Below are positions 15,532 through 20,537 of a stretch of DNA of 64,000 nt, piece after piece. This stretch comes from Candidatus Hermodarchaeota archaeon (GTDB lineage Archaea; Asgardarchaeota; Thorarchaeia; Thorarchaeales; Thorarchaeaceae): contig JBHLLF010000008.1 in assembly GCA_048885865.1 (NCBI GenBank), forward strand, positions 1 through 64,000. The letters run 5' to 3'. The number at the start of each line of letters is the position of its first letter. Position 1 is the stretch's first letter. The notes beneath the pieces were generated by a model. That model ran no database searches. It was not told the origin of the DNA and saw nothing but the letters and a program-made list of their open reading frames with translations. The position numbers and the translations under genes are program-made.

Positions 15532-17691
15532 CTAGGTTTTCAGGATGATGCGTCCCTGAAATTCTGGAATGATGATTCCTTTTGGAGTATCAGGATAAGG
15601 GGTATGAATCATCACTCTCTTTCCTTTGCAGGATTTAATATACTGCTCAAGATTTGTCGCCGAAGAGTGAGCGCTTAGTCTTGCATATTCTACTTGACAT
15701 TCATGTGGCTCATAACCATGCAGTAAGTTCCATCCGGGAGTTCTAGGTGCCAAGTATCCACACAAGATTATAGCAGCATTCGGATTCTTTCTATGTTCCT
15801 TGAAGTGCTGTCTAGCCAGGCCTCCCCCCATCATTCCACCACCAGCTACTAGTACATCTTCCTTGTCAAGAGTCACCTTGTTCTTCTTCATTCCTTGCCA
15901 GTCACCTGACACGCCAACTAGTTTGGTGACATGCTCGGCAAGGCCTGCAACCATCACATTCCTTTGCTTGGTTATGCCGAGATTGTCCAATGTCACAAGT
16001 ATCTCCTGTGACCTTCCGACTGCAAAACTTGGTATGATCACTGGCCCGCTATTCTGAACGACCTGCGTGATAATTTCTGCGACCTTCTGCCGATCAAAGT
16101 CCTCTCTCCCCCAATATGTTCCATCAAAGATTACCATGTCTGGGTCTGTGGGAAGGTTTGCACCGGGGAATAAGACTGACTTATCTAGATTGAAATCTCC
16201 GCTGTACAAAATCTTCACACCTTCAATATCCACAAGGTATGAAACGCTCCCTGGAATATGTGAGGCATCAATGGGTGTCACTACTATTCCGGGTCCAACT
16301 TCGCTGCTCTTTCCAAGCTCAAGACTGACATGATTCTTTGTGACTTTGTCCACGTTTGTCTGATTGAGACGCGATATCAAATCCCGCTTATTCTTCTTTC
16401 TAGGTGGATGAGGTGTACCTACTTTGATTGCATCTTCCAGAAGTGCCTTTGTGACTGCACCAGTGACTCCAACTGAACACCATTTCCCGATGTATTTCTC
16501 ATATAATACTGGCAGTCCTCCGATGTGGTCTAGGTGTGAATGACTCACCAGAATAGAATCAATCATCTCCAGTTCTGGAGCCCACTCAGGAATTCTTTGA
16601 TTTGCAACTGACAGGCCGAAGTCCATCAATACGCCGCCAGTATCTGTCTTAATGAGTATCCCACTATGACCTATCCTTGGCCCCCCGAGAAAAATGACCT
16701 CGATGCGTTTAGTTCTAGTTGAGTAAGCAACTGCAGGTAGTAAATCCATCCTTAGCTTCTGCGGAATCATCTCAAAGACGACGGGGTCAATAGCAGGAGG
16801 GTCAGGAGGCGATTCAAGATCCTGTAACCGCACCGGCAGAACAGAGTCCTCATTTGACTGGAAGCCTGTCTTCTTGAAGACCTCGCGCACCTTCTTGTTA
16901 GCATCTTTTGGATTTAGATCCTGACGAATGTTCTTTTGAGCTTCAGCATTGGCTCTTCTTCGATAAATAGTCAGTAGCTCGGATGAAAGCCCATCAGGGA
17001 GCCAATCTTTCGTTGCTGCTCGAGTTTCCAGATATGAGCGGTTTCCCAATGCCTCCTCCAAATATTCCGAATGTCTTCTAAGTGTGTCAACTAGCCTGAA
17101 TCCAGAATGTTCGGTGAATTCTTCAGCATTGATATCAAATTCCTGACAAGTTTCAACTAGTACCTTCGGATTGAAGATAGGTGCGCCCAGATATTTGAGC
17201 CAGAATAGAACTCTATTGAAAATCCATTCCAGATCATCGCGATGTAGGAGCGATTCGAAGACCAACGCTTTCTTCAGCCACTCCTCCACTATGCTGTATT
17301 TGCGAATTGCCCTCATGGCGTAGCGATAGATATACCTGAAGTCCTCATCATCGTATTTGCCGAATATGAAACCATAGAATCCCAATGTCAGGCAGGCAAT
17401 CATATCGCCTTCATTAATCTCCGCCACTTCGTCACGATACACTCGCTGCAAGAGCTCATCCGTAGCTGTTGCGTCAGTGAGTGATTCGATTTCATTTCCT
17501 GTAGACTGAATGAGCGCATAAGGGGCAAGTTCCCTATTCTCTCCAAAGAAACCAATTTCTGCAATATTGGCTTCTCCCTTGGAGGAACGCCTAGCTTCAC
17601 TGAGTATTGTGGTCAGGACATTTGCAACGATGTTGTTCTTTGATTTTGGCATCTTGGATGTACCTAAGTCCATATCAGTCACTCCTGTCAT
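15532..17691 (-). CDS. MBL-fold beta-CASP family ribonuclease (aCPSF-like) with a ~330-aa unknown N-terminal extension
   Basis: FLGG..IGHS, LMDFG, SHSHLDHIG, ASHIPGS, YSGDF, DGTY, IPSFAVGRSQE, LSAHS and a terminal H motif. Confidence 0.85.
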   Translation of the reverse strand: MTGVTDMDLGTSKMPKSKNNIVANVLTTILSEARRSSKGEANIAEIGFFGENRELAPYALIQSTGNEIESLTDATATDELLQRVYRDEVAEINEGDMIACLTLGFYGFIFGKYDDEDFRYIYRYAMRAIRKYSIVEEWLKKALVFESLLHRDDLEWIFNRVLFWLKYLGAPIFNPKVLVETCQEFDINAEEFTEHSGFRLVDTLRRHSEYLEEALGNRSYLETRAATKDWLPDGLSSELLTIYRRRANAEAQKNIRQDLNPKDANKKVREVFKKTGFQSNEDSVLPVRLQDLESPPDPPAIDPVVFEMIPQKLRMDLLPAVAYSTRTKRIEVIFLGGPRIGHSGILIKTDTGGVLMDFGLSVANQRIPEWAPELEMIDSILVSHSHLDHIGGLPVLYEKYIGKWCSVGVTGAVTKALLEDAIKVGTPHPPRKKNKRDLISRLNQTNVDKVTKNHVSLELGKSSEVGPGIVVTPIDASHIPGSVSYLVDIEGVKILYSGDFNLDKSVLFPGANLPTDPDMVIFDGTYWGREDFDRQKVAEIITQVVQNSGPVIIPSFAVGRSQEILVTLDNLGITKQRNVMVAGLAEHVTKLVGVSGDWQGMKKNKVTLDKEDVLVAGGGMMGGGLARQHFKEHRKNPNAAIILCGYLAPRTPGWNLLHGYEPHECQVEYARLSAHSSATNLEQYIKSCKGKRVMIHTPYPDTPKGIIIPEFQGRIILKT

Positions 17692-18694
17692 TTGCCATTC
17701 GATACAAGCCCTGACGGCTATCTCTTAGAGACACATGTTTAGAAACCAGTCCGTCTGATATGAGAATGGAGAGCGCGTATCTTACGGTTCTAGGGGGAAG
17801 TAAGGTTTCATCAACTATTTCTTTCTGTGTTAGTTGTCCTTGATATTCAAGAACCTTGAGTACAAGCTTAGCGCTTGGAGGAAGGTCTTGAGCTAGGTCT
17901 CCAAAAGCTTCAGTCATTTGATGGAGCTTTCCTCTCAATGCTGCTACTCTTTCTTCTGATAGCTTGACAAAGACCGCATCTGCATCGGCACGTTCGATGA
18001 GGACTGGTCCACTATTGACCTTTCTGCGCAATTGCCCATCAAGAACAGCCTCTATCGCTACAGAGCTTGTCAAATCCCGAATCTCAATGAGAGTGGTGTC
18101 CTCCACGATAAGAGGTCGTCTTGCTGGATTAACACTGTTGACGGGGATTATTGTCATGACCTTTGCAGGAGGTAGCACAACTGGCCCACCAACACTCATG
18201 GAGTATGCCGTGCTCCCGGTTGGAGTTGCGATGATTAAACCATCGCTCCCATCCTTCCAGAATCGTTCGTTGTCAAGATGGAGCGAATAGCGAATTAGTG
18301 TTGCACTTCGCCGAGCAAAGATTGCTGCATCATTCAGCAAGGGAGGACTTGATTTGCCTGCGATAGACACCTGAAGTCTAGTTCTTCGGTCCTGAGTCCA
18401 TCGTGCTTCAAGGAGATCTGGGATCACATCTTCGAATGTGGATGCAGTCACATCAAAAAGGAAGTCAGGCTGACCCTTAGATGAAACGGGCAGGAATGGC
18501 ACGGTTGAGTTGCCTAGCTGAAGTAATGCATTGAGCAGGGTTTTGTCGGAACCTATGATCACGATTAGGTCAGAATCGAGTTTCTTAATTGAGGCTCCCT
18601 TTTTCTTCAGTGCTTTTCCTGTTTTTTCCTCAATCTGAATATCGACATCGTTTGATTGGAGCACACGCATGATTTCACGAGTGTCCTCTATCAT
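17675..18694 (-). CDS. NAD kinase-like protein fused to a C-terminal winged-helix DNA-binding domain
   Basis: LND, SDGLIIATPTGSTAYSMSVGGP and DGQ (NAD kinase), with GGDGT replaced by GSDKT. The C-terminal LPPSAKLVLKVLEYQGQLTQKEI..ETLLPPRTVRYALSIL...GLV is an archaeal wHTH. The true start may be ATT at 18733. Confidence 0.85.
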   Translation of the reverse strand: MIEDTREIMRVLQSNDVDIQIEEKTGKALKKKGASIKKLDSDLIVIIGSDKTLLNALLQLGNSTVPFLPVSSKGQPDFLFDVTASTFEDVIPDLLEARWTQDRRTRLQVSIAGKSSPPLLNDAAIFARRSATLIRYSLHLDNERFWKDGSDGLIIATPTGSTAYSMSVGGPVVLPPAKVMTIIPVNSVNPARRPLIVEDTTLIEIRDLTSSVAIEAVLDGQLRRKVNSGPVLIERADADAVFVKLSEERVAALRGKLHQMTEAFGDLAQDLPPSAKLVLKVLEYQGQLTQKEIVDETLLPPRTVRYALSILISDGLVSKHVSLRDSRQGLYRMANDRSD

Positions 18695-18815
18695 GCTTGC
18701 CTCTAATCCTGATATGACGCCAATCTTCGTAATGGTGTCCTCCCATTTCTTCGAGAGTCTGCTTTTGTGGTCGTGTTCAACCTCTTAAATCAAGCTGGAA
18801 AACGGGCCTGAGCGA

Positions 18816-18857
18816 GGCAAAAGTTGCCAAACGAATATATGGAGGACAATGTTTGCC
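18816..18857. promoter_or_regulatory. Two palindromic putative operator sites (GGCAA-N3-TTGCC and GACAA-N3-TTGCC) flanking a TATA-like AATATAT upstream of nadA
   Basis: GGCAAaagTTGCC at 18816-18828, AATATAT at 18834-18840 and GACAAtgtTTGCC at 18845-18857. Confidence 0.55.
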
Positions 18858-18886
18858 GATTGTGATTTGGTTAATAGTTCAAAAAG

Positions 18887-19873
18887 ATGGAGCTTGCGTG
18901 GTGCAATCTGTTGACTAGTAAGATGACTGAAATGCAGCAAAAGGTCCTTGCATTAAAGAAAGAATGCAATGCATTGCTTCTGGCACATAATTATCAACCA
19001 ATGGAAATTCAAGAGGTTGCCGATTTCGTGGGTGATTCTCTGCAACTTGCCAGAAAGTCGGCTGAAGTCAGTGGCTATGACATGATTATCTTCGCAGGTG
19101 TCAAGTTTATGGCTGAGATGGCGGCAGTGCTCAATGATAAGACTCCTGTTTATATCCCTGCAACTGATGCGATTTGCCCATTGGCAGCCTGGGTCAGCGC
19201 TGATAAGGTGAGAGCTCTAAAGGAGAAGTACCCCGATGCTCCAGTGGTGGTCTATGTCAACACGACCGCAGAAACAAAATCAGTATCTGACGTTATTTGT
19301 ACATCAGGAAATGCGGTGAAAGTTGTATCAGCTCTGGGCGTAGCCAGAGTTCTATTCGGACCTGACAAAAACCTCGCTGATTATGTGCGTCGTCAGACTG
19401 GGGTGGAGCTGATTGATCTTGAGCCCAGAGGCCATTGCTATGTTCATCAGCAGTTCGACATTGCTCAAATAGAACTGCTTCGAGAGGAATATCCTGAAGC
19501 TGTAGTCATCGTTCATCCAGAATGCCCTGAAGAGGTTCAGGCTGCCGCGGATATTGTTGGGTCAACTGGAGCCATGGTCAAGATAGTGGCGGAATCAGCT
19601 GACGACACATTTGTCATCGCTACTGAGTTAGGACTGATAGAACAACTTCAGGCGAAACATCCGGATAAGAAGATTATCCCCGCCTACGAGCGAGCTGTCT
19701 GTCGCCAAATGAAGAAGAACAGCTTGGAAAAGGTCTTGCGAGTACTGGAAGAGCGGCCGGAGGAGAATCTTGTCACAGTTCCTGAGGAGATGATAGGGCA
19801 CATCCAAGAGATTCTGAACCAAATGAGTCGAGCACCAGATGCGAAATTTGCTGAAGCATCGGCATCTGACTGA
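18887..19873 (+). CDS. nadA: Quinolinate synthase
   Basis: LLAHNYQ, GDSL.LA, GVKFMAE, YVNT.AE.K, CTSGNA, PDKNL, HCYVH, HPEC, GST and C..MK, with three Fe-S cysteines. Confidence 0.96.
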   Translation: MELAWCNLLTSKMTEMQQKVLALKKECNALLLAHNYQPMEIQEVADFVGDSLQLARKSAEVSGYDMIIFAGVKFMAEMAAVLNDKTPVYIPATDAICPLAAWVSADKVRALKEKYPDAPVVVYVNTTAETKSVSDVICTSGNAVKVVSALGVARVLFGPDKNLADYVRRQTGVELIDLEPRGHCYVHQQFDIAQIELLREEYPEAVVIVHPECPEEVQAAADIVGSTGAMVKIVAESADDTFVIATELGLIEQLQAKHPDKKIIPAYERAVCRQMKKNSLEKVLRVLEERPEENLVTVPEEMIGHIQEILNQMSRAPDAKFAEASASD

Positions 19874-19877
19874 AGGA

Positions 19878-20537
19878 TTAATCGGAAATGAGTTCAAGAA
19901 TCTCTTTCAATTCGAGGAGATTCGAGATTACGTGGCCACTATGACCAGCCTGAATGAAATCGTCCTTGTTGAACATCCCCTCAAGTGCAACAAATTGTGT
20001 GTGATCTTTTGATCTTTCATAGTCCTTTAGCGAATCGCCAATGAACACAACATCGCTTAACGGAATATTATAATTGTCACGCACATGGTTGAAGTGATGA
20101 GCTCCCTTCTCGAATCCAGGTCTGTAGCCAAGAATCTCAGTGAAGAGCTCAGTCATACAAAGTCGATTGAAGTATTCAGTTATTGTACTCTGAAAAGTTG
20201 ACGATGATACGAACAGATTGAATCCCTTCAGTTTCAGTTGAGTTACTACACCCTTTGCTTCTGGAAAGAGTGCCTGCTCATAGATACGACTAATCTTCAA
20301 TTTCTCGAATATGTCAATGGCTTCCTCATTCGCTTTATGATCAGGAAAATTCAGTTTGATTTGATGCTCATAAGGAAGTCCTGTGGTGGACTTGTAGCGT
20401 TCCGCTGCCTCCTTCTTGGAAACGCCATAGAACTTCATCATGACTTCCACGCCTATCTCTGCCAGGAATGGCATGCTATCGGCAAGGGTCCCATCGAAGT
20501 CAAAGATCACGGCTCTGCATCGAAGCTTATCAGTCAT
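19878..20537 (-). CDS. HAD superfamily hydrolase (subfamily IA)
   Basis: IFDFDGTLADS (motif I), VSS (II), K (III), FIGDSLKD (IV). Confidence 0.9.
   Translation of the reverse strand: MTDKLRCRAVIFDFDGTLADSMPFLAEIGVEVMMKFYGVSKKEAAERYKSTTGLPYEHQIKLNFPDHKANEEAIDIFEKLKISRIYEQALFPEAKGVVTQLKLKGFNLFVSSSTFQSTITEYFNRLCMTELFTEILGYRPGFEKGAHHFNHVRDNYNIPLSDVVFIGDSLKDYERSKDHTQFVALEGMFNKDDFIQAGHSGHVISNLLELKEILELISD

What the first reader, a model, noticed from the sequence alone, without database searches (positions are those of the whole stretch)
17675..19873. NAD-kinase-fold/winged-helix fusion with an altered GGDG motif, divergent from nadA: candidate NAD(P)-sensing transcription regulator
Seen: the NAD-binding motifs (ND, TPTGSTAY..S.GGP, DG) are intact, but the signature GGDGT reads GSDKT and the usual G.LGFL reads GQPDFL. 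A complete wHTH is fused at the C-terminus, and the gene is head-to-head with quinolinate synthase. Established: known NAD regulators (NadR, NrtR, NiaR) are enzyme-like ligand domains fused to HTHs, and regulators are commonly divergent from their targets. Inference: a regulator class that uses an NAD kinase fold as the sensor, or a bifunctional kinase/repressor. I recall similar fusions annotated simply as NAD kinase in other archaea but know of no demonstrated regulatory role.
Basis: partly seen in the sequence, partly recalled or inferred. Interest (0 to 1): 0.72.

Follow-up and report, generated by a model that had tools for sequence, protein, structure and literature searches.

The report
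NAD-kinase-derived regulator facing nadA
A Thorarchaeota (Asgard archaeon) gene joins a remodelled spare copy of NAD kinase to a DNA-binding winged helix and faces the NAD-synthesis gene nadA across a conserved palindrome, so it is very probably an undescribed transcription factor that tunes NAD synthesis to the cell's NAD(P) level.

Summary
The gene at 17675-18694 (-) has an NAD-kinase fold and a C-terminal MarR-type winged helix. GGDGT reads GSDKT and NxGxLGFL reads SSKGQPDFLF, while the NAD-contact motifs (ND, TPTGSTAY, DG) are intact.

The genome also has a canonical NAD kinase on contig C104. The fusion has been lost from several related genomes, so it is not the housekeeping enzyme.

The family spans Asgard lineages, Thermofilaceae and Nitrososphaerales. 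It lies divergent from nadA (or nadA-nadC, or nadA-nadC-nadX). In lineages where I found no nadA it sits beside a nicotinate-phosphoribosyltransferase-like gene.

A 13-bp palindrome, GGCAA-N3-TTGCC (18816-18828), was present in all 26 Thorarchaeota loci that carry the fusion. A weaker copy follows 29 bp downstream. Variants occur in relatives only 31-35% identical. It is the only intergenic copy in this 3.6-Mb assembly and is mostly lost where the fusion is lost.

Best reading: an NAD(P)-sensing transcription factor of nadA, parallel to bacterial NrtR and archaeal RbkR. Ligand, activator-versus-repressor sign and residual kinase activity are untested.

I found no paper describing it. This scan has already flagged the same family in at least 24 other genomes.

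Gene models need correction: the regulator probably starts at a non-AUG codon (18730/18733), and nadA at 18923.

The parts
17675..18733 (-). Coding sequence of the NAD-kinase-fold/winged-helix fusion. The first ATG is at 18694; the probable true start is ACG 18730 or ATT 18733.
   Evidence: AlphaFold2 model mean pLDDT 86; Foldseek best matches are NAD kinases, target-normalised TM 0.81-0.85
18539..18553 (-). GSDKT, the altered GGDGT catalytic loop (Asp kept, both flanking Gly lost)
   Evidence: role of the motif from PMC9763689
18455..18484 (-). SSKGQPDFLF, the altered NxGxLGFL loop. The altered form is itself nearly invariant within Thorarchaeota.
18032..18334 (-). NAD-contact motifs retained: ND (18329-18334), TPTGSTAYS (18200-18226), GGP (18182-18190), DGQ (18032-18040)
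   Evidence: invariant or nearly invariant columns; residue roles from PMC9763689
17696..17884 (-). C-terminal winged helix-turn-helix (LPPSAK ... RTVRYALS ... RDSRQGLY), the most conserved part of the protein
   Evidence: Pfam MarR_2/HTH_24; helix-helix-helix-strand-strand in the model; 50% identity to Heimdall-type members against 19% for the N-domain
18728..18744 (-). Ribosome-binding site GGGAGGA (18738-18744) and the ATT-ACG pair (18728-18733) where translation probably starts
18785..18791 (-). Conserved TATA-like box (ATTTAAG on the minus strand) for the regulator gene
   Evidence: conserved block CTTAAAT in 26 Thorarchaeota loci; assignment as TATA box is inference
18816..18828 (.). Operator site 1, perfect palindrome GGCAA-aag-TTGCC
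   Evidence: present in 26/26 Thorarchaeota loci with the fusion, in the f2 locus and in 7/7 Heimdall-type loci; only intergenic strict copy in the 3.58-Mb assembly
18845..18857 (.). Site 2, GACAA-tgt-TTGCC, always 29 bp after site 1. The right half is strongly conserved and the left half weakly.
18858..18877 (+). Conserved block GATTGtGATTTgg followed by the nadA TATA-like box TTAATAG (18871-18877)
   Evidence: also kept in relatives that lack the fusion. Assignment as BRE/TATA is inference.
18923..19873 (+). nadA, quinolinate synthase (the ORF is open from 18887; the probable start is ATG 18923)
   Evidence: Pfam NadA E 6.9e-105 and NCBIfam equivalogs above cut-off; start
15532..17691 (-). 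719-aa metallo-beta-lactamase/beta-CASP gene. It overlaps the regulator's stop by 17 nt and is probably co-transcribed. Its membership of the system is doubtful.
   Evidence: synteny in Thorarchaeota and family f2 only. It stays next to nadA when the regulator is deleted.

Best explanation
The gene encodes a transcription factor built from a duplicated NAD kinase.

The kinase-fold part keeps the pocket that recognises NAD(P) but has remodelled the two loops of the phosphoryl-transfer cleft. I infer that it now serves mainly as a pyridine-nucleotide sensor.

The protein probably dimerises through the kinase C-domain, as NAD kinases do. That would place two C-terminal winged helices on the palindrome GGCAA-N3-TTGCC, which lies upstream of the nadA core promoter, with a second, weaker site 29 bp closer to it. 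Occupancy of the NAD(P) site is proposed to change DNA binding, so that transcription of nadA, and probably of the regulator's own operon, follows the cellular NAD(P) level.

Shown here: the domain architecture, the motif pattern, the paralogy with a canonical kinase, the conserved gene linkage and the conserved palindrome. Inferred: DNA binding, the ligand, and the direction of control. On direction, the site geometry favours activation, whereas repeated clean loss of the gene with an unchanged core promoter favours a dispensable repressor or modulator.
For: 1. Architecture: NAD_kinase_C plus MarR-type winged helix. The AlphaFold2 model has pLDDT 86, and the best Foldseek matches are NAD kinases.

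2. Not the housekeeping enzyme. A canonical NadK (GGDGT, NRGNVGFL) lies on C104, and a third, 409-aa paralogue lies on C65. In 10 Thorarchaeota genomes without the fusion, 7 have nadA directly facing the beta-CASP gene. One of these (G155) keeps a decayed winged-helix remnant between the two genes. In two, no beta-CASP gene was found beside nadA.

3. Constraint pattern.
- Among the best 150 cluster representatives, 86 are fusions and 78 of those cover the motif region. Only about 20 of the 78 keep GGDG, against 56 of 64 non-fusion kinases.
- NE/D, TPTGSTAY and DG are kept throughout.
- Identity between Thorarchaeota and Heimdall-type members is 19% in the N-domain, 34% in the NAD-binding domain and 50% in the winged helix.

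4. Linkage to NAD genes across large distances.
- Divergent nadA at 26 of the 28 Thorarchaeota loci fetched; the other two contigs end before it.
- Divergent nadA in families f2 and f15.
- nadA-nadC in Heimdall-type genomes at 31-36% identity.
- nadA-nadC-nadX in a Thermofilaceae MAG.
- Next to an NAPRTase-like gene in f20 and f16. nadA was found in 0/7 sampled f20 genomes and 1/5 sampled f16 genomes.

5. Operator.
- GGCAA-N3-TTGCC is present in 26/26 Thorarchaeota loci, at a fixed distance from the nadA TATA-like box.
- GG[CT]AA-N3-TTGCT is present in 7/7 Heimdall-type loci.
- A perfect copy lies 112 bp upstream of the NAPRTase-like gene in one f20 genome.
- GGAAA-N3-TTGCC occurs in f15 and upstream of an unlinked nadA in f8.
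- The whole assembly holds 5 strict copies (2.9 expected), and only this one is intergenic.
- The full site 1 is gone in 8 of 10 fusion-less Thorarchaeota loci.
- It is absent upstream of nadA in 6 Asgard families that lack the fusion.

6. Homodimer model: score 0.44, best of 3 controls 0.00.
- That mark was reached by 20 of 30 proteins solved as pairs of one chain and by 1 of 23 solved as single chains.
- The runs agree in at least 64% of contacts, and partner pLDDT is at least 79.
- The interface is residues 153, 171-194 and 206-211 of the kinase C-domain.
- NAD-kinase dimers have been solved, so this pass may reflect likeness to those structures.
Against: - Nothing here shows DNA binding or ligand binding directly.
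- The catalytic Asp is retained in GSDK, so residual or full kinase activity is not excluded.
- The right half of site 2 plus the following block (TTGCC-N2-TTGAGATT) is kept in relatives that have lost the fusion. One such genome (G137) still has a perfect palindrome. Part of the conserved DNA may therefore serve something else.
- In f20/f16 only 1 of 6 loci shows a clear palindrome.
- In Nitrososphaerales the gene is not next to NAD genes.
- No other NAD gene of this genome carries the site: nadB on C6 and the NAPRTase-like gene on C3 do not.
- Related genomes are not independent samples, so the counts overstate the statistical support.
Confidence: 0.72

Rival explanations
1. Bifunctional 'trigger enzyme'. 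The protein is still an active NAD kinase and also regulates nadA, like RbkR, BirA or NadR, with substrate or product occupancy of the active site controlling DNA binding.
For: - The Asp of the GGDG loop and all NAD-contact residues are kept.
- Some family members keep GGDGT and NxGxLGFL intact. One such genome (G007, family f8, 96% complete) has no ordinary short NadK beside the fusion.
- In a quick tree, the GGDGT-bearing fusions lie nearest the canonical kinases.
Against: - In this genome a canonical NadK coexists with the fusion.
- Both catalytic-cleft loops are changed, and the N-domain falls below the Pfam cut-off.
- The gene has been lost repeatedly in close relatives.
- RbkR never co-occurs with its monofunctional paralogue (PMC5397151). 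That pattern is not met here.
Confidence: 0.2
2. Ordinary NAD kinase paralogue whose extra winged helix has no gene-regulatory role (for example protein-protein contact). On this reading the nadA neighbourhood is inherited synteny only.
For: - Sources annotate members as 'NAD+ kinase' or 'sugar kinase'.
- Synteny within one family could be inheritance alone.
Against: - The winged helix is the best conserved part of the protein.
- Linkage switches from nadA to an NAPRTase-like gene in the lineages where nadA was rarely or never found.
- A palindrome is conserved between families whose intergenic DNA is otherwise unalignable.
Confidence: 0.04
3. A transcription factor of nadA whose effector is not NAD(P)(H) but another nucleotide or pathway intermediate (ATP/polyphosphate, NaAD, ADP-ribose).
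For: - The remodelled, family-conserved loops GSDK and SSKGQPDFLF suggest a changed rather than merely decayed pocket near the phosphoryl-donor site.
- NrtR senses ADP-ribose rather than NAD itself (PMC2330246).
Against: The residues that recognise the adenine, ribose and nicotinamide of NAD in solved kinases are the invariant ones.
Confidence: 0.12

Closest known systems
NrtR, the bacterial Nudix-related regulator of NAD metabolism (Rodionov et al. 2008, PMC2330246)
   Same: - N-terminal enzyme-like effector domain taken from NAD metabolism, with a C-terminal winged helix.
- The catalytic signature is perturbed in most members and intact in a few.
- It controls NAD synthesis and salvage genes, is often encoded next to them, and its regulon content shifts between lineages.
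   Different: - No sequence or fold relation: a Nudix fold against an NAD-kinase fold.
- Bacterial, not archaeal.
- NrtR's effector and DNA binding have been demonstrated. Nothing has been demonstrated here.
RbkR, the archaeal riboflavin kinase/winged-helix regulator (Rodionova et al. 2017, PMC5397151)
   Same: - An archaeal cofactor-pathway kinase fused to a winged helix.
- Palindromic operators upstream of the promoters of biosynthesis genes.
- It was found by the same comparative-genomic logic, and it is a proposed activator.
   Different: - The kinase domain of RbkR is C-terminal. Here the winged helix is C-terminal.
- RbkR is an active kinase, with conserved catalytic residues, and never co-occurs with RibK. 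Here the catalytic loops are degenerate and a canonical NadK coexists.
- I detected no sequence similarity: the winged helix alone gives only weak PDB matches (E 0.08 or worse) to Lrp/MarR/TFE-type proteins.
Canonical NAD kinase (NadK/PpnK; e.g. PDB 7MH7, 2AN1, 1Z0S)
   Same: Same fold, the same NE/D and TxxGSTAY NAD-contact motifs, and the same predicted dimer interface.
   Different: - GGDG reads GSDK and NxGxLGFL reads SSKGQPDFLF.
- An extra linker helix and winged helix are present.
- The scores fall below all NCBIfam equivalog cut-offs.
- The gene is dispensable in relatives.
NadR and NiaR (bacterial NAD regulators)
   Same: They control de novo or salvage NAD genes in response to a pathway metabolite. 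NadR is an enzyme-regulator fusion.
   Different: Unrelated domains, and no Pfam or NCBIfam match to either family.

Membership tests
NAD kinase (EC 2.7.1.23) | NAD_kinase C-terminal domain (PF20143) above the Pfam cut-off | tested here: met
   71.4 bits vs 23.7
NAD kinase (EC 2.7.1.23) | NAD_kinase N-terminal domain (PF01513) above the Pfam cut-off | tested here: not met
   21.1 bits vs 25.5
NAD kinase (EC 2.7.1.23) | Score above an NCBIfam NAD-kinase equivalog cut-off | tested here: not met
   best 143 bits vs cut-off 326; none of 18 models is reached
NAD kinase (EC 2.7.1.23) | GGDG catalytic motif | tested here: not met
   Reads GSDK: the Asp is kept and both flanking Gly are replaced. Motif definition from PMC9763689.
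NAD kinase (EC 2.7.1.23) | NE/D motif and conserved region II (T..GSTAY) | tested here: met
   ND and TPTGSTAYS are present and invariant in the family
NAD kinase (EC 2.7.1.23) | Phosphorylates NAD to NADP | not testable with these tools
   needs an enzyme assay
MarR-type winged-helix transcription factor | Winged helix-turn-helix domain | tested here: met
   MarR_2 27.6 bits vs 27 and HTH_24 22.4 vs 21.9, both only just above cut-off; three helices plus a two-strand wing in the model
MarR-type winged-helix transcription factor | Stand-alone ~150-aa protein whose N- and C-terminal helices form the dimer | tested here: not met
   Only the ~60-aa winged-helix core is present. Dimerisation is predicted through the kinase domain.
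MarR-type winged-helix transcription factor | Binds a palindromic operator near its own or a divergent gene | tested here: inconclusive
   A conserved palindrome is there, but binding itself was not testable.
RbkR-like bifunctional kinase/regulator ('trigger enzyme') | Catalytic residues of the kinase conserved | tested here: not met
   The GGDG and NxGxLGFL loops are altered here, and in most of the 78 fusion representatives that cover the motif.
RbkR-like bifunctional kinase/regulator ('trigger enzyme') | Never co-occurs with the monofunctional kinase | tested here: not met
   A canonical NadK is in the same genome, and most Thorarchaeota genomes show two matches.
NrtR / NadR / NiaR | Nudix-like, NadR-type or 3H sensor domain | tested here: not met
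   No such Pfam or NCBIfam match.

The most novel reading that the evidence does not exclude
This is a family-wide, previously undescribed archaeal NAD-homeostasis transcription factor. It was born as a bifunctional NAD kinase/regulator, and members with intact GGDGT still exist. It was then repeatedly turned into a pseudo-kinase sensor once a second kinase was available. It spans Asgard archaea and Thermoproteota and retargets from de novo (nadA) to salvage (NAPRTase-like) genes as pathways are lost. It would be the first NAD regulator known in Archaea, and a natural series from enzyme to sensor.
Probability: 0.55. Interest if true: 0.72.

Novelty: new variant of a known kind. Interest (0 to 1): 0.62.

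Why it matters
In the papers I could search, all described NAD-synthesis regulators (NadR, NiaR, NrtR) are bacterial and none is archaeal. This family would fill that gap, and it occurs in the Asgard lineage.

It would also add the NAD-kinase fold to the short list of enzyme folds recruited as transcription-factor sensors.

The family contains members with intact catalytic motifs and members with degenerate ones. It therefore offers a testable series for how an enzyme becomes a sensor.

The 13-bp operator and a soluble ~350-aa protein make the hypothesis directly testable in vitro, even though Thorarchaeota are uncultured.

On the practical side, database names for these proteins ('NAD+ kinase', 'sugar kinase') are probably misleading for metabolic reconstructions.

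Tried and rejected
- **Wider regulon in this genome.** Allowing one mismatch gave 140 genome hits. Fourteen are intergenic and near gene starts, and two of those are the nadA sites. The neighbours I scanned of the other twelve are unrelated genes: MFS transporter, GNAT, PLP enzyme, ABC ATPase, TPR proteins, radical SAM, luciferase-like enzyme and a histidine kinase. I read these as chance hits.
- **Other NAD genes.** The upstream regions of the NAPRTase-like gene (C3) and of nadB (C6) carry no full site.
- **TATA box between the two sites.** Another first-reader note took AATATAT (18834-18840) for the nadA TATA box. That spacer is not conserved. The conserved TATA-like box is TTAATAG at 18871-18877.
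- **Is the fusion the only NAD kinase in family f20?** Three genomes show only the fusion, but two of the same genus also have an ordinary NadK. Completeness is 76-91%, so the test is inconclusive.
- **Structured RNA.** Rfam gave no match in 17500-20000.
- **Literature.** Five full-text searches found no description of an NAD kinase/HTH regulator.
- **Window-only statistics.** Two hits at up to 1 mismatch in 64 kb is not above chance by count (1.54 expected). The evidence lies in their co-location and their conservation.

Full report
**What is there**

The window comes from an Asgard MAG: 3.58 Mb in 117 contigs, 87% complete, 5.3% contamination. The closest database proteins are labelled Candidatus Thorarchaeota.

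The ORF at 17675-18694 (-) matches Pfam NAD_kinase_C strongly. It matches MarR_2/HTH_24 at residues 270-328. The N-terminal kinase domain falls below the Pfam cut-off, and no NCBIfam NAD-kinase equivalog cut-off is reached.

An AlphaFold2 model built on a 26-row alignment has mean pLDDT 86. It shows the two-domain kinase fold, a linker helix and a three-helix, two-strand winged helix. Foldseek's best matches are solved NAD kinases, with target-normalised TM 0.81-0.85.

- GSDKT in place of GGDGT;
- SSKGQPDFLF in place of NxGxLGFL;
- ND, TPTGSTAYS..GGP and DGQ intact.

A review of NAD kinases states that the Asp of GGDG is the catalytic centre. It also states that the NE/D motif and the T and Y of conserved region II recognise NAD (PMC9763689). 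The gene is head-to-head with a clear nadA.

**Gene-model corrections**

The regulator's frame is open for 13 codons above ATG 18694 and encodes the first strand of the kinase fold. Homologues begin there with Met.

Within this genus the stretch changes almost only synonymously. The ATG of the next relative aligns with ACG 18730, 8 nt after GGAGG, and ATT 18733 lies one codon upstream. Translation therefore probably starts at a non-AUG codon.

nadA probably starts at ATG 18923. Relatives start at the equivalent Met, and several have stops upstream of it.

**It is a spare copy, not the housekeeping kinase**

The genome has a canonical 292-aa NadK on C104, with GGDGT and NRGNVGFL. It also has a third, 409-aa kinase-like paralogue on C65.

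Among 43 sampled genomes of the same family, about a dozen have only the ordinary kinase. I fetched the nadA locus of ten of these.
- In seven, nadA directly faces the beta-CASP gene that here lies downstream of the regulator.
- One of those seven (G155) keeps a decayed winged-helix remnant between the two genes.
- In two, no beta-CASP gene was found beside nadA.

The gene is therefore dispensable and has been lost several times.

**Constraint pattern**

A profile search of 1.84 billion representatives returned 86 fusion clusters among the best 150 hits. Of these, 78 cover the motif region. Only about 20 of the 78 keep GGDG, against 56 of 64 non-fusion kinases. NE/D, TPTGSTAY and DG are kept in all of them.

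Identity between Thorarchaeota and Heimdall-type members differs by region:

| Region | Identity |
|---|---|
| N-domain | 19% |
| NAD-binding domain | 34% |
| Winged helix | 50% |

The altered loops are themselves nearly invariant inside Thorarchaeota. That looks like a new function rather than decay.

A quick, unrooted tree puts the canonical kinases in one supported clade (52 rows, SH-aLRT 97). The GGDGT-bearing fusions lie nearest to that clade. This fits an origin as an active kinase/regulator, but the tree has no outgroup root.

**Gene neighbourhood**

| Lineage | Identity to the window protein | What lies beside the fusion |
|---|---|---|
| Thorarchaeota (f1) | 54-92% | Divergent nadA in 26 of 28 fetched loci; the other two contigs end before it |
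| f2 and f15 | about 44% | Divergent nadA |
| Heimdall-type; one locus is Ca. Heimdallarchaeum aukensis | 31-36% | Divergent nadA-nadC |
| Thermofilaceae MAG | about 38% | Divergent nadA-nadC-nadX |
| f20 and f16 | 36-41% | An NAPRTase-like gene; nadA found in 0/7 (f20) and 1/5 (f16) sampled genomes |
| Nitrososphaerales MAGs | 39-44% | No NAD genes nearby |

**Operator**

GGCAA-N3-TTGCC (18816-18828) is present in all 26 Thorarchaeota intergenic regions. A weaker copy lies exactly 29 bp further on. Its right half is followed at a fixed distance by a conserved block and a TATA-like box.

The distance from site 1 to the regulator's own TATA-like box varies. The geometry is therefore anchored on the nadA promoter.

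Variants elsewhere:
- GG[CT]AA-N3-TTGCT in 7/7 Heimdall-type loci;
- GGTAA-N3-TTGCC in f2;
- GGAAA-N3-TTGCC in f15, and upstream of an unlinked nadA in f8;
- a perfect copy 112 bp upstream of the NAPRTase-like gene in one f20 genome.

In this assembly there are five strict copies (2.9 expected), and only this one is intergenic. One-mismatch copies lie next to unrelated genes.

The full site 1 is gone in 8 of 10 Thorarchaeota loci that lack the fusion. It is absent upstream of nadA in six other Asgard families that lack it.

**What does not fit neatly**

The right half of site 2 with the following block (TTGCC-N2-TTGAGATT) survives in genomes without the fusion, and G137 even keeps a perfect palindrome. 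That element may belong to the core promoter or to another factor.

In f20/f16 only one of six loci shows a clear site.

**Mechanism and its limits**

A homodimer model passed its controls.
- The score was 0.44, with the best of 3 controls at 0.00.
- That mark was reached by 20 of 30 proteins solved as pairs of one chain and by 1 of 23 solved as single chains.
- The runs agree in at least 64% of contacts, and partner pLDDT is at least 79.
- The interface lies in the kinase C-domain.

NAD-kinase dimers have been solved, so the pass may only reflect that likeness.

A dimer on a 13-bp palindrome, with the NAD pocket near the interface, is a plausible way for nucleotide binding to be coupled to DNA binding. 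This is inference.

The direction of control is open.
- For activation: the sites lie upstream of the BRE/TATA region, centred roughly 23 and 52 bp from the TATA centre. This is the geometry used to argue that RbkR is an activator (PMC5397151).
- For a repressor or modulator: the regulator has been lost cleanly several times while the core promoter stayed almost unchanged. That is easier to reconcile with a dispensable repressor or modulator.

**Comparison with known systems**

The closest parallel in logic is bacterial NrtR. It has an enzyme-like N-terminal domain from NAD metabolism whose catalytic signature is mostly perturbed, a C-terminal winged helix, and control of NAD genes (PMC2330246).

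The closest archaeal parallel is RbkR, a riboflavin kinase fused to a winged helix. RbkR is an active kinase and never co-occurs with its paralogue (PMC5397151). Neither protein is related in sequence to this one.

Five literature searches found no description of this family.

The scan's own index shows the same family flagged in at least 24 other genomes, with the same reading. I re-derived the evidence here independently, on this window's relatives.

Noticed in passing
window 18728-18744 (-): The regulator gene in this genus has no ATG/GTG/TTG at its conserved N-terminus. ACG (18730) aligns with the ATG of the next relative, 8 nt after GGAGG, and ATT/ATA lies one codon upstream. The 11 codons after it change almost only synonymously among four genomes. 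This suggests non-AUG initiation, possibly keeping the regulator at a low level.
   Followed up: partly
window 18887-18925: The nadA ORF starts 36 nt too early. The conserved TATA-like box (18871-18877) is only 10 nt before ATG 18887. Relatives start at the Met equivalent to ATG 18923, and several have in-frame stops upstream of it.
   Followed up: yes
window 15532-17691 (-): A 719-aa metallo-beta-lactamase/beta-CASP protein with a ~340-aa N-terminal extension that matches no Pfam family. It overlaps the regulator's stop by 17 nt. Synteny is conserved in Thorarchaeota and one sister family. It remains head-to-head with nadA when the regulator is deleted. Its function, and any link to NAD, are unknown.
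   Followed up: partly
window 18853-18870; loci L062-L071: The element TTGCC-N2-TTGAGATT just upstream of the nadA TATA-like box is retained in Thorarchaeota genomes that have lost the regulator. It is either part of the core promoter or the site of another factor.
   Followed up: partly
L070:897-1364 (genome G155): A decayed remnant of the regulator's winged helix lies between nadA and the beta-CASP gene. It matches residues 283-339 at about 60% identity, and the LPPSAK helix is lost. This catches a gene loss in progress.
   Followed up: yes
G000 contigs C65 (L003:1492-2721), C3:102373-103557, C6:111979-113487: - A third NAD-kinase-like paralogue of 409 aa with GGDGT lies on C65.
- The only QRPTase-family gene in the assembly is a 396-aa NAPRTase-like protein on C3. 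No short nadC and no aspartate dehydrogenase was found.
- nadB is present on C6.
- Which enzyme converts quinolinate here is unclear. The genome is 87% complete.
   Followed up: partly
L086:2810-2900 (Thermofilaceae MAG): The short gap between the fusion gene and nadA-nadC-nadX holds GCAAG-CC-CTTGC. This is a palindrome with the same GCAA/TTGC core as the Thorarchaeota site but a 4-nt spacer.
   Followed up: no
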